Sequence record: ON286973
Direction: 5' to 3' (one strand)
Length of the DNA: 64,000 nt
Origin: Escherichia phage A51.2
A program made the translations under genes and the position numbers. The notes beneath the pieces are model-generated. The model searched no databases and was not told where the DNA came from. It was given only the letters and a program-made list of their open reading frames with translations. Position 1 is the stretch's first letter; each line of letters starts with the position of its first letter. Positions 20,383 to 25,394 of this stretch are shown one piece after another.

Positions 20383-20661
20383 ATGAGCTGCGAAAAATCT
20401 TTTTTCATCATCATTTACGGTAAGGATAACTGCCCACATTGTGTCAGAGCAAAAGAATTTGCAATCAGCAAAGGTCTGCCTTTTGTATATAAGACACTTG
20501 GCGAGGGCTACACAAAAGAAGAGCTTATTGAGAAGTGCAGTCCAATTGTCCCCAGAACGTTGCCGCAGATCTTCTTAGAAAGCGATCTTGACAGTGTCCA
20601 TATAGGCGGTGCCGACGATTTCATCTCTTTTGTTAAGAATGGTTTTGGAGAGAAAAAGTGA
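20383..20661 (+). CDS. Glutaredoxin/NrdH-like thiol-disulfide redoxin
   Basis: CPHC redox motif in IIIYGKDNCPHCVRAKEF. Confidence 0.8.
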   Translation: MSCEKSFFIIIYGKDNCPHCVRAKEFAISKGLPFVYKTLGEGYTKEELIEKCSPIVPRTLPQIFLESDLDSVHIGGADDFISFVKNGFGEKK

Positions 20662-22796
20662 AAGTTGTAAAACGGGACGGTAGAGAAGAGTTCTATAACG
20701 GAATTAAGGTGATCAAGGCGGCAGAGTCCGCCTTACTTGAGTCTGGACATACTGAAGAAGAAGCTTACCGGATCGCCTGCGCGGTTAATGAAGTTGTTGC
20801 TAACAATCTACCAACCGACCAGTGCACGATCTCTGTAAAAAATATCCATATCCTTGTTGAAGATGCTCTTATGGATATGGGTTTAAAATGTGCAGCCAGA
20901 GAATACATCCAGTATAGACAGACAAGAGATAATAACAGAGAGGCAGGTGGAAAACTGCTTGCAGATATTAGTGGCTTCTTGGATCGAACTTGTGATGAAT
21001 TTACAAAAGAAAACGCAAATAAGCCTACTAATCATGTACACACTCATCGCGACCTGCTTGCAGGTATTCTTAGCAAACACCTTGCATCAACACAGATCCT
21101 GCCAGACCGTGTCTCCGAAGAGCACAATAAAGGATTCATCCATGTGCATGATCTTGACTACTTGATCAGTCCGTTAACAAACTGTTGTTTGGTAAATTAT
21201 CCAGATATGTTGGAAAACGGATTCAACATTGGTAACGCCCATGTCAGTAAGCCGAAGTCAATAGGGGTTGCAACAACAATCCTTAGCCAAATCTCTAGTG
21301 CGGTAGCTAGTGCTCAATATGGTGGTCAGACTATGAGCCATATTGATCATTATCTGGCACAGTATGCTGAAGCAACCTATGAGAAGAACCTTAAATTTTG
21401 CCAGGAACATTGGTTGCCGGATGCTGAAACTGTTGCAATGCAAATGACAGATAAAGACGTATTTGACAGCATGCAGACTTTGCTCTATCAAATCAACACG
21501 TTAACTTCTGTCAACGGGCAAACTCCATTCATCACATTGAGTTTAGGACTGGATACCTCGGTCTTTGGTAGAATGATTACCAAAAACTACCTGAAAGTCC
21601 ACAAAATGGGTCTTGGTGAAGAACGTATCACACCTGTGTTCCCTAAAGTGCTGTTCTTCCTGGAAGAGGGTGTCAACATGAACCCTGGGGATCCTAACTA
21701 TGATTTGAAACGATTAGCTCTGGAATGCTGTGCAGAACGTATCTATCCTGACTTCGTATCTGTACCACTAAATAGAAAAGTGACAGGCTCGACAGATGGC
21801 AAAGTAACTAGCATGGGTTGCAGGAGTTTTCTTAGCAAATACAATGACTTGGAAACAGGCGAGGAGAAATACCTTGGCAGATTTAACTTAGGCGTTGTTA
21901 GCCTTAACCTGCCAATGATTGCGGCAAAAGCTAAGACGGAAGGTGTTGATTTCTTTGCAGTTCTTGACGAATACTTGGATCTTGCATACGAGGCTCACCT
22001 TGTAAGGGTTAACCGTCTAAAAGGAACAAAGGCAGGGCAGAACCCCATCATGTGGTGTGAAGGCGCTCTTGCTCGCCTGGATCCTGAAGAAAGTATTGAT
22101 AAACTCTTCTATGACGGGTACGCTTCCATCAGCATTGGGTACATTGGTGTGTATGAAACCTGTCAGATTTTGGGCAGAGAAGGTGACAAGGCTTTAGCTC
22201 TTGGAATCCTTCAGCACATGAGAGATGCTTGTGAGCGATACAAGAAGGAAAGTAGACTAGCATTTAGCTTGTACGGCACTCCTTCTGAGAGTCTATGCTA
22301 TAAAGCTGCAACCTGTCTGGATCGTGAATATCCAGAAGTGTTAAAGCACGAGCATGAATATCTCACCAACAGTTTCCATCAGCCAGTATGGATCAATAGC
22401 TCTCCTTTTGATAAGTGGGAGTATGAGGAAGGTTTTGCTATGATCTCCTCCGGTGGCAACATCGGATACGTAGAGACACCTAACCTGAAAAACAACCTTG
22501 ATGCTTTAGAGGCTCTTGTTGACTTCGGGTATAAACACATTATGTATTTTGGTATTAACCAACCTGTGGATAAATGTCTCAAGTGTGGTTTCTCTGGTGA
22601 GTTCAGTGCAACAGCTAAAGGGTTCTGCTGCCCTGCGTGCGGATGCCACGATGAACAATATATCTCAGTGATCCGAAGAGTGTCTGGCTATCTCTCCAGC
22701 CCGAACAGTAGGCCGTATAACACAGGTAAACAAGCAGAGGTTATCGAACGTGTTAAACATGTTGGGAATGTAGACTGTTGTCCGTTGAGTAAATAA
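20658..22796 (+). CDS. nrdD: Anaerobic ribonucleoside-triphosphate reductase (class III, NrdD)
   Basis: C-terminal glycyl-radical motif RRVSGYL and Zn ribbon CLKCGF ... CPACGC. Confidence 0.9.
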   Translation: MKVVKRDGREEFYNGIKVIKAAESALLESGHTEEEAYRIACAVNEVVANNLPTDQCTISVKNIHILVEDALMDMGLKCAAREYIQYRQTRDNNREAGGKLLADISGFLDRTCDEFTKENANKPTNHVHTHRDLLAGILSKHLASTQILPDRVSEEHNKGFIHVHDLDYLISPLTNCCLVNYPDMLENGFNIGNAHVSKPKSIGVATTILSQISSAVASAQYGGQTMSHIDHYLAQYAEATYEKNLKFCQEHWLPDAETVAMQMTDKDVFDSMQTLLYQINTLTSVNGQTPFITLSLGLDTSVFGRMITKNYLKVHKMGLGEERITPVFPKVLFFLEEGVNMNPGDPNYDLKRLALECCAERIYPDFVSVPLNRKVTGSTDGKVTSMGCRSFLSKYNDLETGEEKYLGRFNLGVVSLNLPMIAAKAKTEGVDFFAVLDEYLDLAYEAHLVRVNRLKGTKAGQNPIMWCEGALARLDPEESIDKLFYDGYASISIGYIGVYETCQILGREGDKALALGILQHMRDACERYKKESRLAFSLYGTPSESLCYKAATCLDREYPEVLKHEHEYLTNSFHQPVWINSSPFDKWEYEEGFAMISSGGNIGYVETPNLKNNLDALEALVDFGYKHIMYFGINQPVDKCLKCGFSGEFSATAKGFCCPACGCHDEQYISVIRRVSGYLSSPNSRPYNTGKQAEVIERVKHVGNVDCCPLSK

Positions 22797-22806
22797 GGAA
22801 AGAGGT

Positions 22807-22843
22807 GGAGAGCAAGGATGCTCTCATTTTTTTTTTTGTTTTT
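22807..22843 (+). terminator. Rho-independent terminator GGAGAGCA-AGGA-TGCTCTC plus an 11-T tract
   Basis: Read directly after the nrdD stop. Confidence 0.8.
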
Positions 22844-22844
22844 A

Positions 22845-22873
22845 TTGACTTCTATTCCTCTTTTCTATAGTAT
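22845..22873 (+). promoter_or_regulatory. Sigma70-like promoter, TTGACT-17bp-TAGTAT
   Basis: Read directly, immediately downstream of the terminator. Confidence 0.5.
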
Positions 22874-22911
22874 GCAATATAAAGTGAATAGCGGAAGGGT
22901 CTGGTCTGGTA

Positions 22912-23844
22912 ATGAGAAGACTAACAACCGAAGAGTTTATAGAAAAAGCTCAGACTATACATGGTGACAAATATGATTACTTCAAAGTGGAGTATAAAAA
23001 CAACAAGACACCTGTGTGTATAATTTGTCCTGAGCACGGTGAGTTCTGGCAAACCCCTGTGGCACATGCTTTCAAGAATCATGGTTGTCCAAGGTGTGGT
23101 GGGTCAGCGAAAAAGAACACTGAAGAGTTCATAAAAGAGGCTATGGCTGTTCATGGGGACAAGTACGATTACTCATTAGTCAAATATGCGAACATGAGAA
23201 CGCCTGTAAAAATTGTTTGCCCTGAACACGGTGTGTTTGAACAATACCCTGAAAACCACTTATACCAAAGAAACGGCTGCCCAGAGTGCTATGACTTAAG
23301 ACGTGGGCAAAGTCAAGCGTTAACCCATAAGGAGCACGCTGCAATTATCCACAAAGCCAACCCAGACATAGAAATATTAGAGAAAATTGCCAATGATAAC
23401 ACAAAAGTGCAATGTAGGTGCAAAATTTGTGGGTATAAGTGGTCTGCTAAACCTAATAACCTAAAAAGTGGTCGTGGCTGCTGTAAATGCGCACAAAATG
23501 GATTCTTATCTCATGAGTACGGTAAACTCTACATTATGGTTGATGACTTAGAAGTGCCAACACTTATGAAAATCGGTGTATGCGTTAAAATGCACAGGAG
23601 GAAAAATGAGGTGCTTAACAGTGCTCGTAAATCTGGCGCAGGTGTCCACACTCTTCACGTAGTAAAAACATGGAGCGGATCAACTCAAAACATGGTAGAT
23701 TTAGAAAAATCTGTGCATAAGGCCTTGAGCAAGTATAAAATAAACTTTCCTGTAAAATTTGACGGTAGCACTGAGTTTTTCTACTACAGGCCTGAAGTGT
23801 TTGACACGGTAGAAGAGGTATACAAGAAGATTTGTGGTAAATGA
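22912..23844 (+). CDS. Putative free-standing homing-endonuclease-like protein
   Basis: Two N-terminal repeats HGDKYDY ... CPEHG ... GCP.C, and a C-terminal GKLYIMVDD ... KIGV segment resembling GIY-YIG-like (T5orf172-type) modules; inserted between nrdD and nrdG. Confidence 0.4.
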   Translation: MRRLTTEEFIEKAQTIHGDKYDYFKVEYKNNKTPVCIICPEHGEFWQTPVAHAFKNHGCPRCGGSAKKNTEEFIKEAMAVHGDKYDYSLVKYANMRTPVKIVCPEHGVFEQYPENHLYQRNGCPECYDLRRGQSQALTHKEHAAIIHKANPDIEILEKIANDNTKVQCRCKICGYKWSAKPNNLKSGRGCCKCAQNGFLSHEYGKLYIMVDDLEVPTLMKIGVCVKMHRRKNEVLNSARKSGAGVHTLHVVKTWSGSTQNMVDLEKSVHKALSKYKINFPVKFDGSTEFFYYRPEVFDTVEEVYKKICGK

Positions 23845-23896
23845 TTGTAGAAAGATATGCATATCTTAAACATGCTATTAACTAAGGAGGTGCAGT

Positions 23897-24013
23897 ATGT
23901 CATCAGGTATTTATAAAATTTGCAAGTGTGGTTGTCGTTGCAATCTTCGTTGGTGCAAGGCACTGGACGATTTTATTTGGCATTGCCCTGAATGCGATGC
24001 GGAGTACTTATAA
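23897..24013 (+). CDS. Small Cys-rich (zinc-ribbon-like) protein, 38 aa
   Basis: Strong RBS AAGGAGG then ATG; 9 Cys including CKCGC and CPEC; below the ORF-track length cutoff. Confidence 0.4.
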   Translation: MSSGIYKICKCGCRCNLRWCKALDDFIWHCPECDAEYL

Positions 24014-24164
24014 GCATAAGGGGTCGAAATGCGGAAATCTATCAAGAAAATCAAGATAAAATTGTTAGCACTGAAGCGTAAGTATAAAAAGTTATACGGC
24101 TTCATCAAATGGACTTTTATAGGTTTATCTTGAATAGAAGCACATCACAGAAGAGAGGTTCCTT

Positions 24165-24401
24165 ATGATAGGTGTCTGTGTAAAAGCTAACAGATGGTTT
24201 ACATTCGGTAAGGATTACGAAATTATCTTTCATTCGGACAGAGCCACAACAGTAGAAAGCGATGATGGGTGCCACTGGTTCGTTAGTTACCATGGTGATG
24301 GGTATTATAGATCTACTGATTCCAGAGGGGAAGAAGCTGTTTTCTTGGATAGAGCTTATTGTGGGCCTGAATATCCTTACCTAAAAGAGGATAAGGAATG
24401 A
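24165..24401 (+). CDS. Hypothetical protein
   Basis: 78-aa ORF, ATGA overlap with nrdG. Confidence 0.4.
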   Translation: MIGVCVKANRWFTFGKDYEIIFHSDRATTVESDDGCHWFVSYHGDGYYRSTDSRGEEAVFLDRAYCGPEYPYLKEDKE

Positions 24402-24871
24402 ATGTTGTTAATATTATAGAGTGTAGCATGGTTGACGGCCCAGGCATTAGGACAACGGTGTTCTGTTCTGGTTGCCCACATCACTGCGTCGGTTGCCAAA
24501 ACAAAAGTGTTTGGTCACCAGCTAAAGGGGAACCGTTAACAAATGACACTATTGAGAGTATACTTCACTCTATAGAGCCGAAACACATTACTGGCGTTAC
24601 ATTATGCGGTGGCGAACCTTTAGCGCCTTACAATATTGATGGTATGTACTCGATCATTCGCGCTATCCGTGAACACTTCGGCAACACAAAAACTATCTGG
24701 GTGTACACAGGGTATTTGTTTGAAGAAGTCCCCGATTACATTAAAGATAGTGTTGATTACATTATGGACGGTAAGTACGAAAAAGATAACCCCACCAAAA
24801 AACCCTTTAGAGGCAGTGATAACCAAAGAATGTTTAAAAAGGTAGCAGATGGTTGGGTTCAGGTTGACTAA
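24398..24871 (+). CDS. nrdG: Anaerobic ribonucleotide reductase activating protein (radical SAM, NrdG)
   Basis: VDGPGIRTTVFCSGCPHHCVGCQN, the radical-SAM cysteine cluster typical of NrdG. Confidence 0.9.
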   Translation: MNVVNIIECSMVDGPGIRTTVFCSGCPHHCVGCQNKSVWSPAKGEPLTNDTIESILHSIEPKHITGVTLCGGEPLAPYNIDGMYSIIRAIREHFGNTKTIWVYTGYLFEEVPDYIKDSVDYIMDGKYEKDNPTKKPFRGSDNQRMFKKVADGWVQVD

Positions 24872-24874
24872 TCG

Positions 24875-24904
24875 TTGACAAAGCTTTGTTAAGTCGGTTA
24901 TAAT
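24875..24904 (+). promoter_or_regulatory. Sigma70-like promoter, TTGACA-18bp-TATAAT
   Basis: Read directly after the nrdG stop. Confidence 0.5.
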
Positions 24905-24933
24905 TGTCGTAATGAAAGCAGAGGAGGTGCCAA

Positions 24934-25047
24934 ATGGCTAAAAAAGCCTTGAAGAAGGCGTACAAGAAAGAGATTGCGCTTGAGCTTAAGAAAAAACACA
25001 AGCGTGAAAAGAAACATCATGAAGATGAAGAGGGGGTGCAACAGTGA
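24934..25047 (+). CDS. Small lysine-rich basic protein, 37 aa
   Basis: GAGGAGG RBS then ATG; sequence MAKKALKKAYKKEIALELKKKHKREKKHHEDEEGVQQ; stop overlaps the GTG start of the next ORF. Confidence 0.35.
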   Translation: MAKKALKKAYKKEIALELKKKHKREKKHHEDEEGVQQ

Positions 25048-25394
25048 CACAAGAACGTATCGATTTGGCTAATAAGTTTGTAGATCTCATTTTGCCACGG
25101 TTAGTTACTCAACATGCAGATGCTATTTCTACTAATCTTGATGGCTTACGCCTAATGCTGAATCGCACAGATGACCCTCGTATTCGGGCTGATTTAGAAG
25201 CCTCTGCCAACAAACTGGAAAAGTTCTTGCAAGTAGACACGCAAGAAGCCTTGCACAAGATTATGGTGGAAGGTTTCTCTAAAGAATTTACCATTAAAGA
25301 GCTTAAGGAGCTGATCCACCAAGAAGAGATGAATATCCGAGTTCAGGCTGTTGCAAGCAGCATGGAAGCGGTTATTGAAAAACTGTTGCAGTAA
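25044..25394 (+). CDS. Hypothetical protein
   Basis: 116-aa ORF with GTG start after GAGGGGG. Confidence 0.4.
   Translation: MTQERIDLANKFVDLILPRLVTQHADAISTNLDGLRLMLNRTDDPRIRADLEASANKLEKFLQVDTQEALHKIMVEGFSKEFTIKELKELIHQEEMNIRVQAVASSMEAVIEKLLQ

What the first reader, a model, noticed from the sequence alone, without database searches (positions are those of the whole stretch)
22807..24401. Homing-endonuclease-like gene, a Cys-rich micro-ORF and a small ORF inserted between nrdD and nrdG
nrdD ends with a strong terminator followed directly by a promoter driving a 310-aa protein that has duplicated zinc-ribbon-like repeats (HGDKYDY ... CPEHG ... GCP.C) and a GIY-YIG-like C-terminal segment. It is followed by a 38-aa Cys-rich ORF with a near-perfect RBS (23897..24013) and a 78-aa ORF, before nrdG. 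Free-standing homing endonucleases commonly insert between nrd genes in T4-like phages, so this looks like a mobile-gene insertion separating the normally adjacent nrdD and nrdG.
Basis: partly seen in the sequence, partly recalled or inferred. Interest (0 to 1): 0.5.

Follow-up and report, generated by a model that had tools for sequence, protein, structure and literature searches.

The report
Free-standing T5orf172 homing endonuclease gene cassette
A selfish nuclease gene of an already described phage family sits downstream of the anaerobic ribonucleotide reductase gene nrdD in this rV5-like coliphage; it is an ordinary example, but the recombination scars around it are unusually easy to read.

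Summary
The window is an rV5-like coliphage (Vequintavirus). ORF 22912-23844 encodes a 310-aa protein with two near-identical DUF723 zinc fingers, a third CapR/DUF4379-type finger and a C-terminal T5orf172 domain. That domain models as a GIY-YIG nuclease fold, and its catalytic Arg and Glu are conserved.

The gene is present in 18 of about 120 related phage records. It is absent from rV5 and from APECc02, which is the same species.

The imported segment is 22620-23880, not 22807-24401. It starts inside nrdD at codon 655, where the last 58 codons are recoded mostly synonymously. It also carries a strong terminator and its own promoter.

Other evidence that fits a homing endonuclease gene:
- At least six different alleles occupy the same slot.
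- One copy (PMBT16) is frameshifted.
- Relatives show nested recombination junctions in the nrdD 3' end.

The two small ORFs are not part of this insertion:
- The 38-aa Cys-rich ORF is a genus-wide core gene, and its "ribonucleotide reductase" label traces to an off-by-one annotation error.
- The 78-aa ORF, an unlisted 34-aa ORF and a divergent nrdG 5' part form a second, independent variable cassette.

This gene family and its association with RNR genes were described by Barth et al. 2023. Homing itself is untested.

The parts
22620..22796 (+). Recoded 3' end of nrdD (codons 655-712: second Cys pair of the zinc site, glycyl-radical motif RVSGYL, and the alternative tail HVGNVDCCPLSK). It was imported together with the endonuclease gene and probably overlaps or adjoins the endonuclease target in genomes that lack the gene.
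   Evidence: Identity to HEG-less APECc02 is 95-100% per 60-nt block from 21900 up to 22619, then drops to 57-72% from 22620, mostly through synonymous changes. The tail HVGNVDCCPLSK matches the distant HEG-bearing lineages L010 and L013, not rV5's HYGSCGC. Nested junctions at 22688, 22730 and 22760 occur in Murica/nom, JEP1 and rV5-type genomes.
22808..22836 (+). Intrinsic terminator of nrdD (7-bp GC-rich stem, loop AAGG, T11 run), carried by the cassette.
   Evidence: -15.2 kcal/mol, z -3.4. The equivalent hairpin plus T run, with compensatory stem changes, is present in L010 and L013. The rV5 empty site has a hairpin without a T run. The T-run length varies from 5 to 14 among copies.
22845..22873 (+). 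Sigma-70-like promoter (TTGACT-N17-TAGTAT) driving the endonuclease gene.
   Evidence: The TTGACT and -10 positions are conserved in L010 and L013 while the spacer diverges. This is a prediction from sequence only.
22912..23844 (+). 310-aa free-standing T5orf172-type (GIY-YIG superfamily) homing endonuclease gene. Zinc-finger modules cover residues 3-66, 68-130 and about 135-197. The nuclease domain covers residues about 198-310.
23845..23880 (+). Right end of the inserted segment. Homology to empty-site genomes resumes at 23880-23882, just upstream of the RBS of the 38-aa ORF.
23897..24013 (+). 38-aa Cys-rich micro-ORF (7 Cys + 1 His) with a strong RBS. It is a core gene of coliphage Vequintavirus and NOT part of the insertion. 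Its function is unknown.
   Evidence: Present in 121 phage records. All Cys are conserved while positions 3, 14 and 32 vary. Only 8 clusters exist in the 5.8-billion-protein database, all close relatives. phrog_20137 matches over its full length. The 'RNR' label comes from shifted product names in KR698074.
24018..24753 (+). Second, independent variable cassette: 34-aa basic ORF (24029-24133), 78-aa ORF (24165-24401) and a divergent 5' two-thirds of nrdG (24398-24753).
   Evidence: Absent or replaced in I29, navn, ECML-10, FV3 and typing phage 14. The 78-aa ORF is in about 32 Vequintavirus records, and its first 61 residues have homologues in Rtp-like siphophages. The NrdG N-terminal 118 aa are 42% identical between the two alleles, against 82-87% for the remainder. 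The window-type allele is in 32 records.

Best explanation
The 310-aa ORF is a free-standing homing endonuclease gene (HEG) of the T5orf172 branch of the GIY-YIG superfamily, carried on a cassette of about 1.26 kb (22620-23880).

Proposed mechanism:
1. The gene is transcribed from its own sigma-70-like promoter, immediately after the nrdD terminator.
2. The protein reads a long asymmetric DNA site with three tandem zinc-finger modules (two DUF723-type, one CapR/DUF4379-type).
3. The tethered C-terminal GIY-YIG-type domain cuts nearby.
4. In a mixed infection with a relative that lacks the gene, it cleaves that relative's nrdD 3' end or nrdD-ORF38 spacer.
5. Recombinational repair then copies the HEG and flanking markers from the HEG-bearing genome.
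6. The carrier genome is protected because its nrdD 3' end is synonymously recoded and the spacer is interrupted.

Shown here: the domain architecture, the nuclease fold, conserved catalytic residues, presence/absence polymorphism, the recoded flank, multiple alleles in one slot, nested recombination junctions, and one decayed copy.

Inferred, not shown: nuclease activity of this protein, its target site, and homing itself.

The 38-aa, 34-aa and 78-aa ORFs are neighbours, not components.
For: - Catalytic residues: R230 and E288 are invariant in 17-18 homologues. The equivalent Glu is required for cleavage by the T5orf172 nuclease Odn (PMC8263062).
- Sporadic distribution: 18 of about 120 Vequintavirus records hold this insertion. 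It is absent from rV5 and from APECc02, where 67 bp replace 1120 bp.
- Flank conversion: nrdD codons 655-712 are 57-72% identical at the nucleotide level to HEG-less genomes, against 95-100% per 60-nt block upstream. The changes are mostly synonymous, and the tail matches distant HEG-bearing lineages.
- Nested junctions occur at 22688, 22730 and 22760 in other genomes.
- Mobility across backgrounds: the same allele (98-100% identical) sits on backgrounds with and without the nrdD HNH insertion, and with and without the 78-aa cassette.
- Slot turnover: at least six alleles with shuffled zinc-finger modules occupy the same slot.
- Decay: an 11-bp frameshifting deletion is present in PMBT16.
- Not a transposon: no terminal inverted repeats or target duplication.
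- Literature: T5orf172 HEGs with repeated CapR/DUF723 fingers are described, and 33% of them lie in RNR neighbourhoods (PMC10448857).
Against: - No cleavage or homing assay exists for this protein. Barth et al. state that homing of T5orf172 HEGs had not been verified experimentally.
- The nested junctions share a left edge (22620) and vary on the side nearer the HEG. That fits conversion driven from the rV5-type or other HEG alleles into a window-type background at least as well as conversion by this allele. The pattern therefore shows recombination at the site, not which nuclease caused it.
- Breakpoints can only be seen where haplotypes differ, so their clustering is partly a detection bias.
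- Orthologues at the same position in two distant lineages (76% and 59% aa identity) show the gene can be stably inherited over long periods.
- The Shine-Dalgarno sequence of the ORF is weak.
Confidence: 0.78

Rival explanations
1. A domesticated T5orf172 nuclease or DNA-binding protein that now serves the phage. It could work like ICP1 Odn, which cuts a satellite's replication origin, or like PLE CapR, which represses transcription. It might cut competitors or satellites, or regulate genes, rather than home.
For: Odn and CapR show that this domain pair has been co-opted for such roles. Orthologues sit at the same site in two distant lineages at 76% and 59% aa identity, with the terminator and promoter conserved, which suggests long-term maintenance. 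The ORF is intact in 17 of 18 copies.
Against: The gene is dispensable: about 80% of genus members lack it. One copy is frameshifted. The slot holds at least six interchangeable alleles. The flanking essential gene is recoded exactly at the junction, which a trans-acting defence or regulator does not predict. There is no PADLOC hit.
Confidence: 0.12
2. An ordinary accessory gene moved by general homologous recombination between co-infecting phages, or lost by deletion in most lineages. The nuclease would be inactive or irrelevant to its spread.
For: The neighbouring 34-aa/78-aa/nrdG-5' cassette shows the same kind of mosaicism without any nuclease gene. So mosaic junctions alone do not prove homing. 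Phage genomes of this size are known mosaics (PMC8594841).
Against: Catalytic residues and the fold are fully conserved. The family is the one described as HEGs, with the same genomic signatures. Four haplotype junctions fall within 180 nt next to the gene. Multiple nuclease alleles compete for one slot.
Confidence: 0.08
3. The three ORFs (310, 38 and 78 aa) together form one inserted mobile unit.
For: They are contiguous and on the same strand, and GC content is slightly lower across 22700-24350.
Against: Empty-site rV5 and APECc02 retain the 38-, 34- and 78-aa ORFs. I29, navn and CM1 have the 310- and 38-aa ORFs without the 78-aa ORF. All four presence/absence combinations exist.
Confidence: 0.02

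Closest known systems
T5orf172 homing endonuclease genes with CapR/DUF723/DUF4379 zinc-finger arrays (vibriophage ICP1 tcg-type genes and relatives; Barth, Dunham & Seed 2023, PMC10448857)
   Same: The architecture is the same: N-terminal repeated zinc-finger DNA-binding modules and a C-terminal T5orf172 domain. The gene is likewise free-standing and placed beside ribonucleotide reductase genes. It shares the variable presence among near-identical phages, frameshifted copies, module shuffling between alleles, and position at a boundary of genetic exchange.
   Different: The host phage group differs: an rV5-like coliphage rather than ICP1. Identity to ICP1 genes is only about 32%, and only over the fingers. 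This locus additionally preserves a clear synonymously recoded tract in the adjacent essential gene and a series of nested junctions.
Phage T5 ORF172 (founding member of Pfam PF10544)
   Same: Homologous over nearly the whole length (residues 18-295, 26% identity, E 2e-9).
   Different: The relationship is distant and the genomic context is different. To my knowledge the T5 protein's activity is also uncharacterised.
ICP1 Odn (Gp88), an origin-directed T5orf172 nuclease (PMC8263062)
   Same: It has the same nuclease domain. The catalytic Glu (E180 in Odn) aligns in principle with the invariant E288 here. Site-specific cleavage is directed by an N-terminal DNA-binding domain.
   Different: Odn uses a RepA_N domain and targets a satellite's origin as an anti-parasite weapon. 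The protein here uses zinc fingers and shows HEG-type population signatures.
T4 Seg proteins (free-standing GIY-YIG HEGs) and I-TevI
   Different: The domain order is reversed, with the nuclease at the C-terminus. The motif is KIG in place of YIG. DNA binding is by zinc-finger arrays rather than helix-turn-helix/minor-groove modules. No sequence-level match to Pfam GIY-YIG was reported.

Membership tests
T5orf172 domain family (Pfam PF10544, GIY-YIG clan) | Significant match to the PF10544 profile above the curated cutoff | tested here: met
   E 6.5e-8, 33.4 bits against a cutoff of 20, residues 207-307 covering profile positions 4-100 of 101. The related MUG113 model scores 20.3 bits, just below its cutoff.
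T5orf172 domain family (Pfam PF10544, GIY-YIG clan) | GIY-YIG alpha/beta fold | tested here: met
T5orf172 domain family (Pfam PF10544, GIY-YIG clan) | Conserved catalytic Arg and Glu, plus the first-motif Tyr | tested here: met
   Y207 (LYI), K220-I-G222, R230 and E288 are invariant across 17-18 homologues at 37-77% identity. Their equivalence to I-TevI R27/E75 and Odn E180 is inferred from motif order, not from a structural superposition that I inspected.
T5orf172 HEGs with CapR/DUF723/DUF4379 zinc fingers (Barth et al. 2023) | One or more CapR/DUF723/DUF4379 zinc-finger modules N-terminal to the T5orf172 domain | tested here: met
   DUF723 with 2 stretches (2.4e-13), CapR (2.2e-10) and DUF4379 (7.5e-10). 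Internal repeat 33/57 identical, z 34. Cys/His ligand columns are invariant.
Homing endonuclease gene (functional definition) | Variable presence among closely related genomes at a fixed site | tested here: met
   18 of about 120 records carry it. It is absent in APECc02 (same species) and rV5, with precise boundaries.
Homing endonuclease gene (functional definition) | Co-conversion or divergence of flanking sequence at the insertion | tested here: met
   nrdD codons 655-712 are recoded. Nested junctions occur in relatives. Direction and cause are not resolved.
Homing endonuclease gene (functional definition) | Site-specific cleavage of the HEG-less allele | not testable with these tools
   Requires a nuclease assay on nrdD-ORF38 junction DNA from APECc02, rV5 or Murica.
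Homing endonuclease gene (functional definition) | Nuclease-dependent super-Mendelian inheritance in mixed infection | not testable with these tools
   Requires phage crosses. Barth et al. note this is unverified for the whole T5orf172 HEG class.
Transposable element / IS | Terminal inverted repeats, target-site duplication, transposase | tested here: not met
   No flanking inverted or direct repeats. Only the internal 192-nt-spaced repeats of the finger duplication were found. No transposase domain.
Group I intron-encoded endonuclease | ORF embedded in a self-splicing intron inside a host gene | tested here: not met
   The ORF lies downstream of the nrdD stop codon and a terminator. No Rfam family matched in 20500-25200 at E <= 1.

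The most novel reading that the evidence does not exclude
The nrdD-ORF38 slot may be a site of HEG-versus-HEG turnover. At least six T5orf172 alleles with shuffled zinc-finger arrays would successively displace one another. Each would be linked to, or select for, a differently recoded version of the glycyl-radical-encoding end of nrdD that acts as its immunity allele. The nested junctions at 22620, 22688, 22730 and 22760 would then be the fossil record of successive homing events by different alleles. This would give the first directly testable E. coli K-12 system for T5orf172 homing and target-site escape. A separate possibility is that the genus-specific 38-aa Cys-rich protein, translationally coupled to nrdG in most members, is a metal-binding accessory factor of the class III RNR activase.
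Probability: 0.3. Interest if true: 0.5.

Novelty: new member of a known kind. Interest (0 to 1): 0.3.

Why it matters
- Biologically this is an expected selfish element. T5orf172 HEGs next to RNR genes have already been catalogued.
- Its practical value is that this locus occurs in phages that grow on E. coli K-12, with natural HEG+, HEG-, frameshifted and alternative-allele relatives. Most of these are 92-100% identical across this locus.
- Homing by the T5orf172 class was reported as experimentally unverified in 2023. It could be tested here with simple crosses and one point mutant.
- The analysis corrects propagated misannotations: the 38-aa ORF as 'anaerobic RNR', and nrdG or the 78-aa ORF as 'minor capsid protein'.
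- It also warns that the nrdD 3' end and nrdG 5' end are unsuitable as phylogenetic markers in this genus.

Tried and rejected
- Full-length structure search: Foldseek against the PDB with the 310-aa model (pTM 0.51) gave no significant hit. Only Slx1 appeared, at probability 0.93 and E 0.06, because the protein is a string of loosely connected domains. This was resolved by modelling the C-terminal domain alone.
- Sequence search of the PDB with phmmer: no hit at E <= 10.
- NCBIfam and PADLOC: no hits for any of the four ORFs.
- Idea that the 38-aa ORF is a free copy of the NrdD C-terminal zinc ribbon, prompted by a 21-nt direct repeat: BLASTP E 0.39, rejected.
- Idea that the 38-aa ORF's 'ribonucleotide reductase' name reflects homology: rejected. 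The APCEc02 record has all product names shifted by one gene.
- Paralogues of the HEG elsewhere in the 64-kb window: none.
- Transposon-like ends: none.
- Rfam: nothing in the window region, and no group I intron call for the HNH-containing nrdD insertions of relatives.
- A direct donor of the cassette: not found. The closest non-identical homologues are 76% (metagenome L010) and then 59% identical at the protein level. In GenBank phages, the next best match after the 18 copies is below 60%.
The 41-aa variant from typing phage 14 was used instead.
Full report
**What the window is.** The region is 100% identical to Escherichia phage nomine over 22000-25200. It is 94-99% identical to many rV5-like coliphages (genus Vequintavirus); 120 phage records match. 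Local gene order is nrdB, glutaredoxin, nrdD (20658-22796), the ORFs in question, nrdG (24398-24871), two small ORFs, phoH, clpP. The window is not nomine itself. Its nrdD is uninterrupted, whereas nomine carries an HNH-ORF insertion in nrdD.

**Check of the observation.**
- The 310-aa ORF is 22912-23844, the 38-aa ORF 23897-24013 and the 78-aa ORF 24165-24401.
- The nrdD terminator is a 7-bp stem (22808-22825) followed by eleven T. It folds at -15.2 kcal/mol, z -3.4, and no shuffle of 200 does as well.
- A TTGACT-N17-TAGTAT promoter-like site follows at 22845-22873.
- The repeat HGDKYDY...CPEHG...GCPxC is a true duplication: 33 of 57 residues identical, z 34. A third, divergent module lies behind it.

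**What the 310-aa protein is.**
- Pfam finds DUF723 twice (2.4e-13), CapR homology domain (2.2e-10), DUF4379 treble-clef finger (7.5e-10) and T5orf172 at residues 207-307 (6.5e-8, above cutoff).
- PHROGs places it in phrog_681 'endonuclease' (3.8e-65).
- It aligns over nearly its full length with a phage T5 gene annotated 'endonuclease' and with about 1000 phage records. Its fingers match the ICP1 genes annotated tcgB 'putative homing endonuclease'.
- The protein family is very large in metagenomes: at least 7974 hits.
- Y207, K220-x-G222, R230, E265, H269 and E288 are invariant in 17-18 homologues.
- The corresponding Glu is needed for DNA cleavage by the one biochemically tested T5orf172 nuclease, ICP1 Odn (PMC8263062).

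**Presence and absence, and the real boundaries.**
- The insertion is found at 98-100% identity in 18 records.
- rV5 and APECc02 have an empty site, where 67 bp replace 1120 bp (window 22760-23879). Nomine is classified in the APECc02 species.
- A finer comparison shows the foreign tract starts earlier. Identity to APECc02 is 95-100% per 60-nt block from 21900 up to 22619. It then falls to 57-72% from 22620 (nrdD codon 655) to the stop codon.
- Codon by codon, almost every third position differs while the protein is kept (ISVIRRVSGYLSSPNSRPYN.GKQAEVIERVKH). The C-terminal tail switches from HYGSC(G/S)C to HVGNVDCCPLSK.
- The same tail is found in two metagenomic Vequintavirinae-like genomes: L010 (141 kb) and L013 (135 kb). 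These carry orthologues of the gene (76% and 59% aa identity) at the same position. They also share a hairpin-plus-T-run terminator with compensatory stem changes and the same TTGACT promoter.
- The unit that entered some coliphage Vequintaviruses is therefore nrdD 3' end, terminator, promoter and HEG: about 22620-23880.
- There are no terminal repeats or target duplications. No Rfam family matches.

**Signatures of mobility and turnover.**
- The same allele sits on different backgrounds. nrdD occurs with or without one or two HNH-ORF insertions, and the downstream region occurs with or without the 34/78-aa cassette.
- The PMBT16 copy has an 11-bp deletion at codons 13-16 that breaks the frame.
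- The same slot holds at least five other alleles: WalterGehring/nom (321-330 aa; annotated 'putative homing endonuclease' in the BASEL collection), Mangalyan (386 aa), typing phage 14 (386 aa, different), JEP1 (311 aa) and ECML-10. They share 58-78% identical nuclease domains and have reshuffled finger modules.
- The nrdD 3' end exists in nested hybrid haplotypes:
  - window-like throughout (18 records);
  - window-like to 22729, then rV5-like (JEP1);
  - window-like to 22687, then rV5-like (about 16 records, including HEG-less Murica and nom, which carries the WalterGehring-type allele);
  - rV5-like from 22620 (about 83 records).
- These junctions prove repeated recombination within 180 nt of the HEG slot.
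- The junctions share the distal edge and vary on the HEG side. They may therefore record conversion by the other alleles into a window-type background rather than by this allele. Breakpoints are also only visible where haplotypes differ.

**The small ORFs.**
- *38-aa ORF.* The ORF and its AGGAGGT RBS are present in 121 records, including all empty-site genomes. All seven Cys and the His are conserved, while residues 3, 14 and 32 vary. In most genus members its stop overlaps the nrdG start. Only eight close clusters exist among 5.8 billion proteins. It is a genus-specific core micro-gene, not part of the insertion.
- *Its name.* The label 'anaerobic ribonucleoside-triphosphate reductase', and the phrog_20137 label 'ribonucleotide reductase', trace to record KR698074 (APCEc02). 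In that record every product name in this region is shifted by one gene: nrdD is called glutaredoxin, nrdG is called minor capsid protein, and so on. Similarity to the NrdD zinc ribbon is not significant.
- *78-aa ORF.* This ORF (phrog_3249, unknown function) and the 34-aa ORF are in about 32 Vequintavirus records. The first 61 residues have 52-67% identical homologues in Rtp-like siphophages.
- *Linked nrdG allele.* The two ORFs co-occur with an nrdG allele whose N-terminal 118 residues are only 42% identical to the allele in I29, FV3 and typing phage 14. The remainder is 82-87% identical. The I29-type allele is closer to distant relatives (58% to L010), so the window/rV5-type cassette (24018-24753) is probably the imported one. 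It assorts independently of the HEG.

**Mechanism and confidence.** The best explanation is a free-standing T5orf172-type homing endonuclease cassette (0.78).
- Shown: architecture, fold, catalytic residues and population signatures.
- Inferred: cleavage, the target (probably the rV5-type nrdD 3' end or spacer) and homing.
- Rivals: a domesticated nuclease or regulator of the Odn/CapR kind (0.12), or a passively recombining accessory gene (0.08).

**Comparison with what is known.** Barth, Dunham and Seed (2023; PMC10448857) described exactly this class: T5orf172 genes with repeated CapR/DUF723/DUF4379 fingers.
- 87% of such genes carry these fingers.
- 33% lie in RNR neighbourhoods.
- They show variable presence, frameshifts and domain shuffling, and they sit at boundaries of genetic exchange.
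- The authors note that homing is not experimentally verified.

The BASEL paper notes HEG infestation and gene conversion in large coliphage genomes. I found no paper that describes this particular locus. The gene itself is already in GenBank as 'hypothetical protein' or, in I29, 'phage T5, ORF172 domain containing protein'.

**Verdict.** This is a real feature and the HEG call was correct. It is a new member of a known kind and of low to moderate interest (0.3). Its main value is as a tractable K-12 system for testing T5orf172 homing, and as a correction of boundaries and annotations.

Noticed in passing
window 24018-24753 (34-aa ORF 24029-24133, 78-aa ORF 24165-24401, nrdG codons 1-118): A second mosaic cassette. 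The window/rV5-type NrdG N-terminal 118 aa are only 42% identical to the allele in I29, FV3, navn and typing phage 14, whereas the C-terminal part is 82-87% identical. The window-type allele co-occurs with the 34- and 78-aa ORFs in about 32 of about 121 records. The first 61 aa of the 78-aa ORF have homologues in Rtp-like siphophages. No source for this nrdG 5' allele was found; the best hit outside the 32 records is 46% identical.
   Followed up: partly
window 21517/21518 and about 21818/21828 (inside nrdD): The window's nrdD is uninterrupted. Relatives carry insertions of about 0.8 kb with HNH-type ORFs at one or both of these points: nomine, WalterGehring, Mangalyan, FV3 and L010 at the first; navn, JEP1, YP-6 and L011 at the second. 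WalterGehring annotates a joined (spliced) CDS. Rfam gave no group I intron call at gathering threshold, so intron status is unresolved.
   Followed up: partly
L006 (KR698074.1, phage APCEc02) 1-5150: Product names in this GenBank record are shifted by one gene: nrdD is labelled 'glutaredoxin 1', the 38-aa ORF 'anaerobic RNR', nrdG 'minor capsid protein', and the next ORF 'NTP reductase small subunit'. The error has spread to nomine, navn, nom and other records, and probably to the phrog_20137 label.
   Followed up: yes
L007 (phage navn) 5378-5809 and beyond: navn carries a second DUF723/T5orf172-type gene downstream of phoH, replacing the ORF121 equivalent. It is 80% identical in nucleotide sequence to window 22930-23022. 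Paralogous HEGs therefore occupy other slots in this genus. No paralogue is present in this 64-kb window.
   Followed up: partly
L008 (phage PMBT16) about 2450; window equivalent 22948-22958: An 11-bp deletion frameshifts the HEG. The record annotates it as 68-aa and 285-aa ORFs. This is a decaying copy.
   Followed up: yes
window 22826-22836: The poly-T tract of the terminator varies in length among otherwise near-identical copies: 5 T in navn, 10 in PMBT16, 11 in the window and 14 in I29. This could be slippage or homopolymer sequencing error.
   Followed up: no
window 22818-22967: A 49-aa ORF annotated in nomine as a hypothetical protein (nomine_169) spans the terminator T-run and the promoter, and overlaps the HEG start. 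It is very likely not a gene.
   Followed up: no
phage records MG0656xx ('Campylobacter phage A147, A135, A138, D1 ...'): About 18-19 records named as Campylobacter jejuni phages are 96-98% identical to rV5-like coliphages across this locus. The host label looks doubtful: it could reflect contaminating coliphages or mislabelling.
   Followed up: no
window 23897-24013: The 38-aa protein has the conserved pattern C-x(1,2)-C-G-C-x-C-N-L-R-W-C...H-C-P-x-C. It is restricted to this phage genus and is translationally coupled to nrdG in most members. It may be a metal-binding partner of the RNR activase, but there is no evidence for this beyond position.
   Followed up: partly
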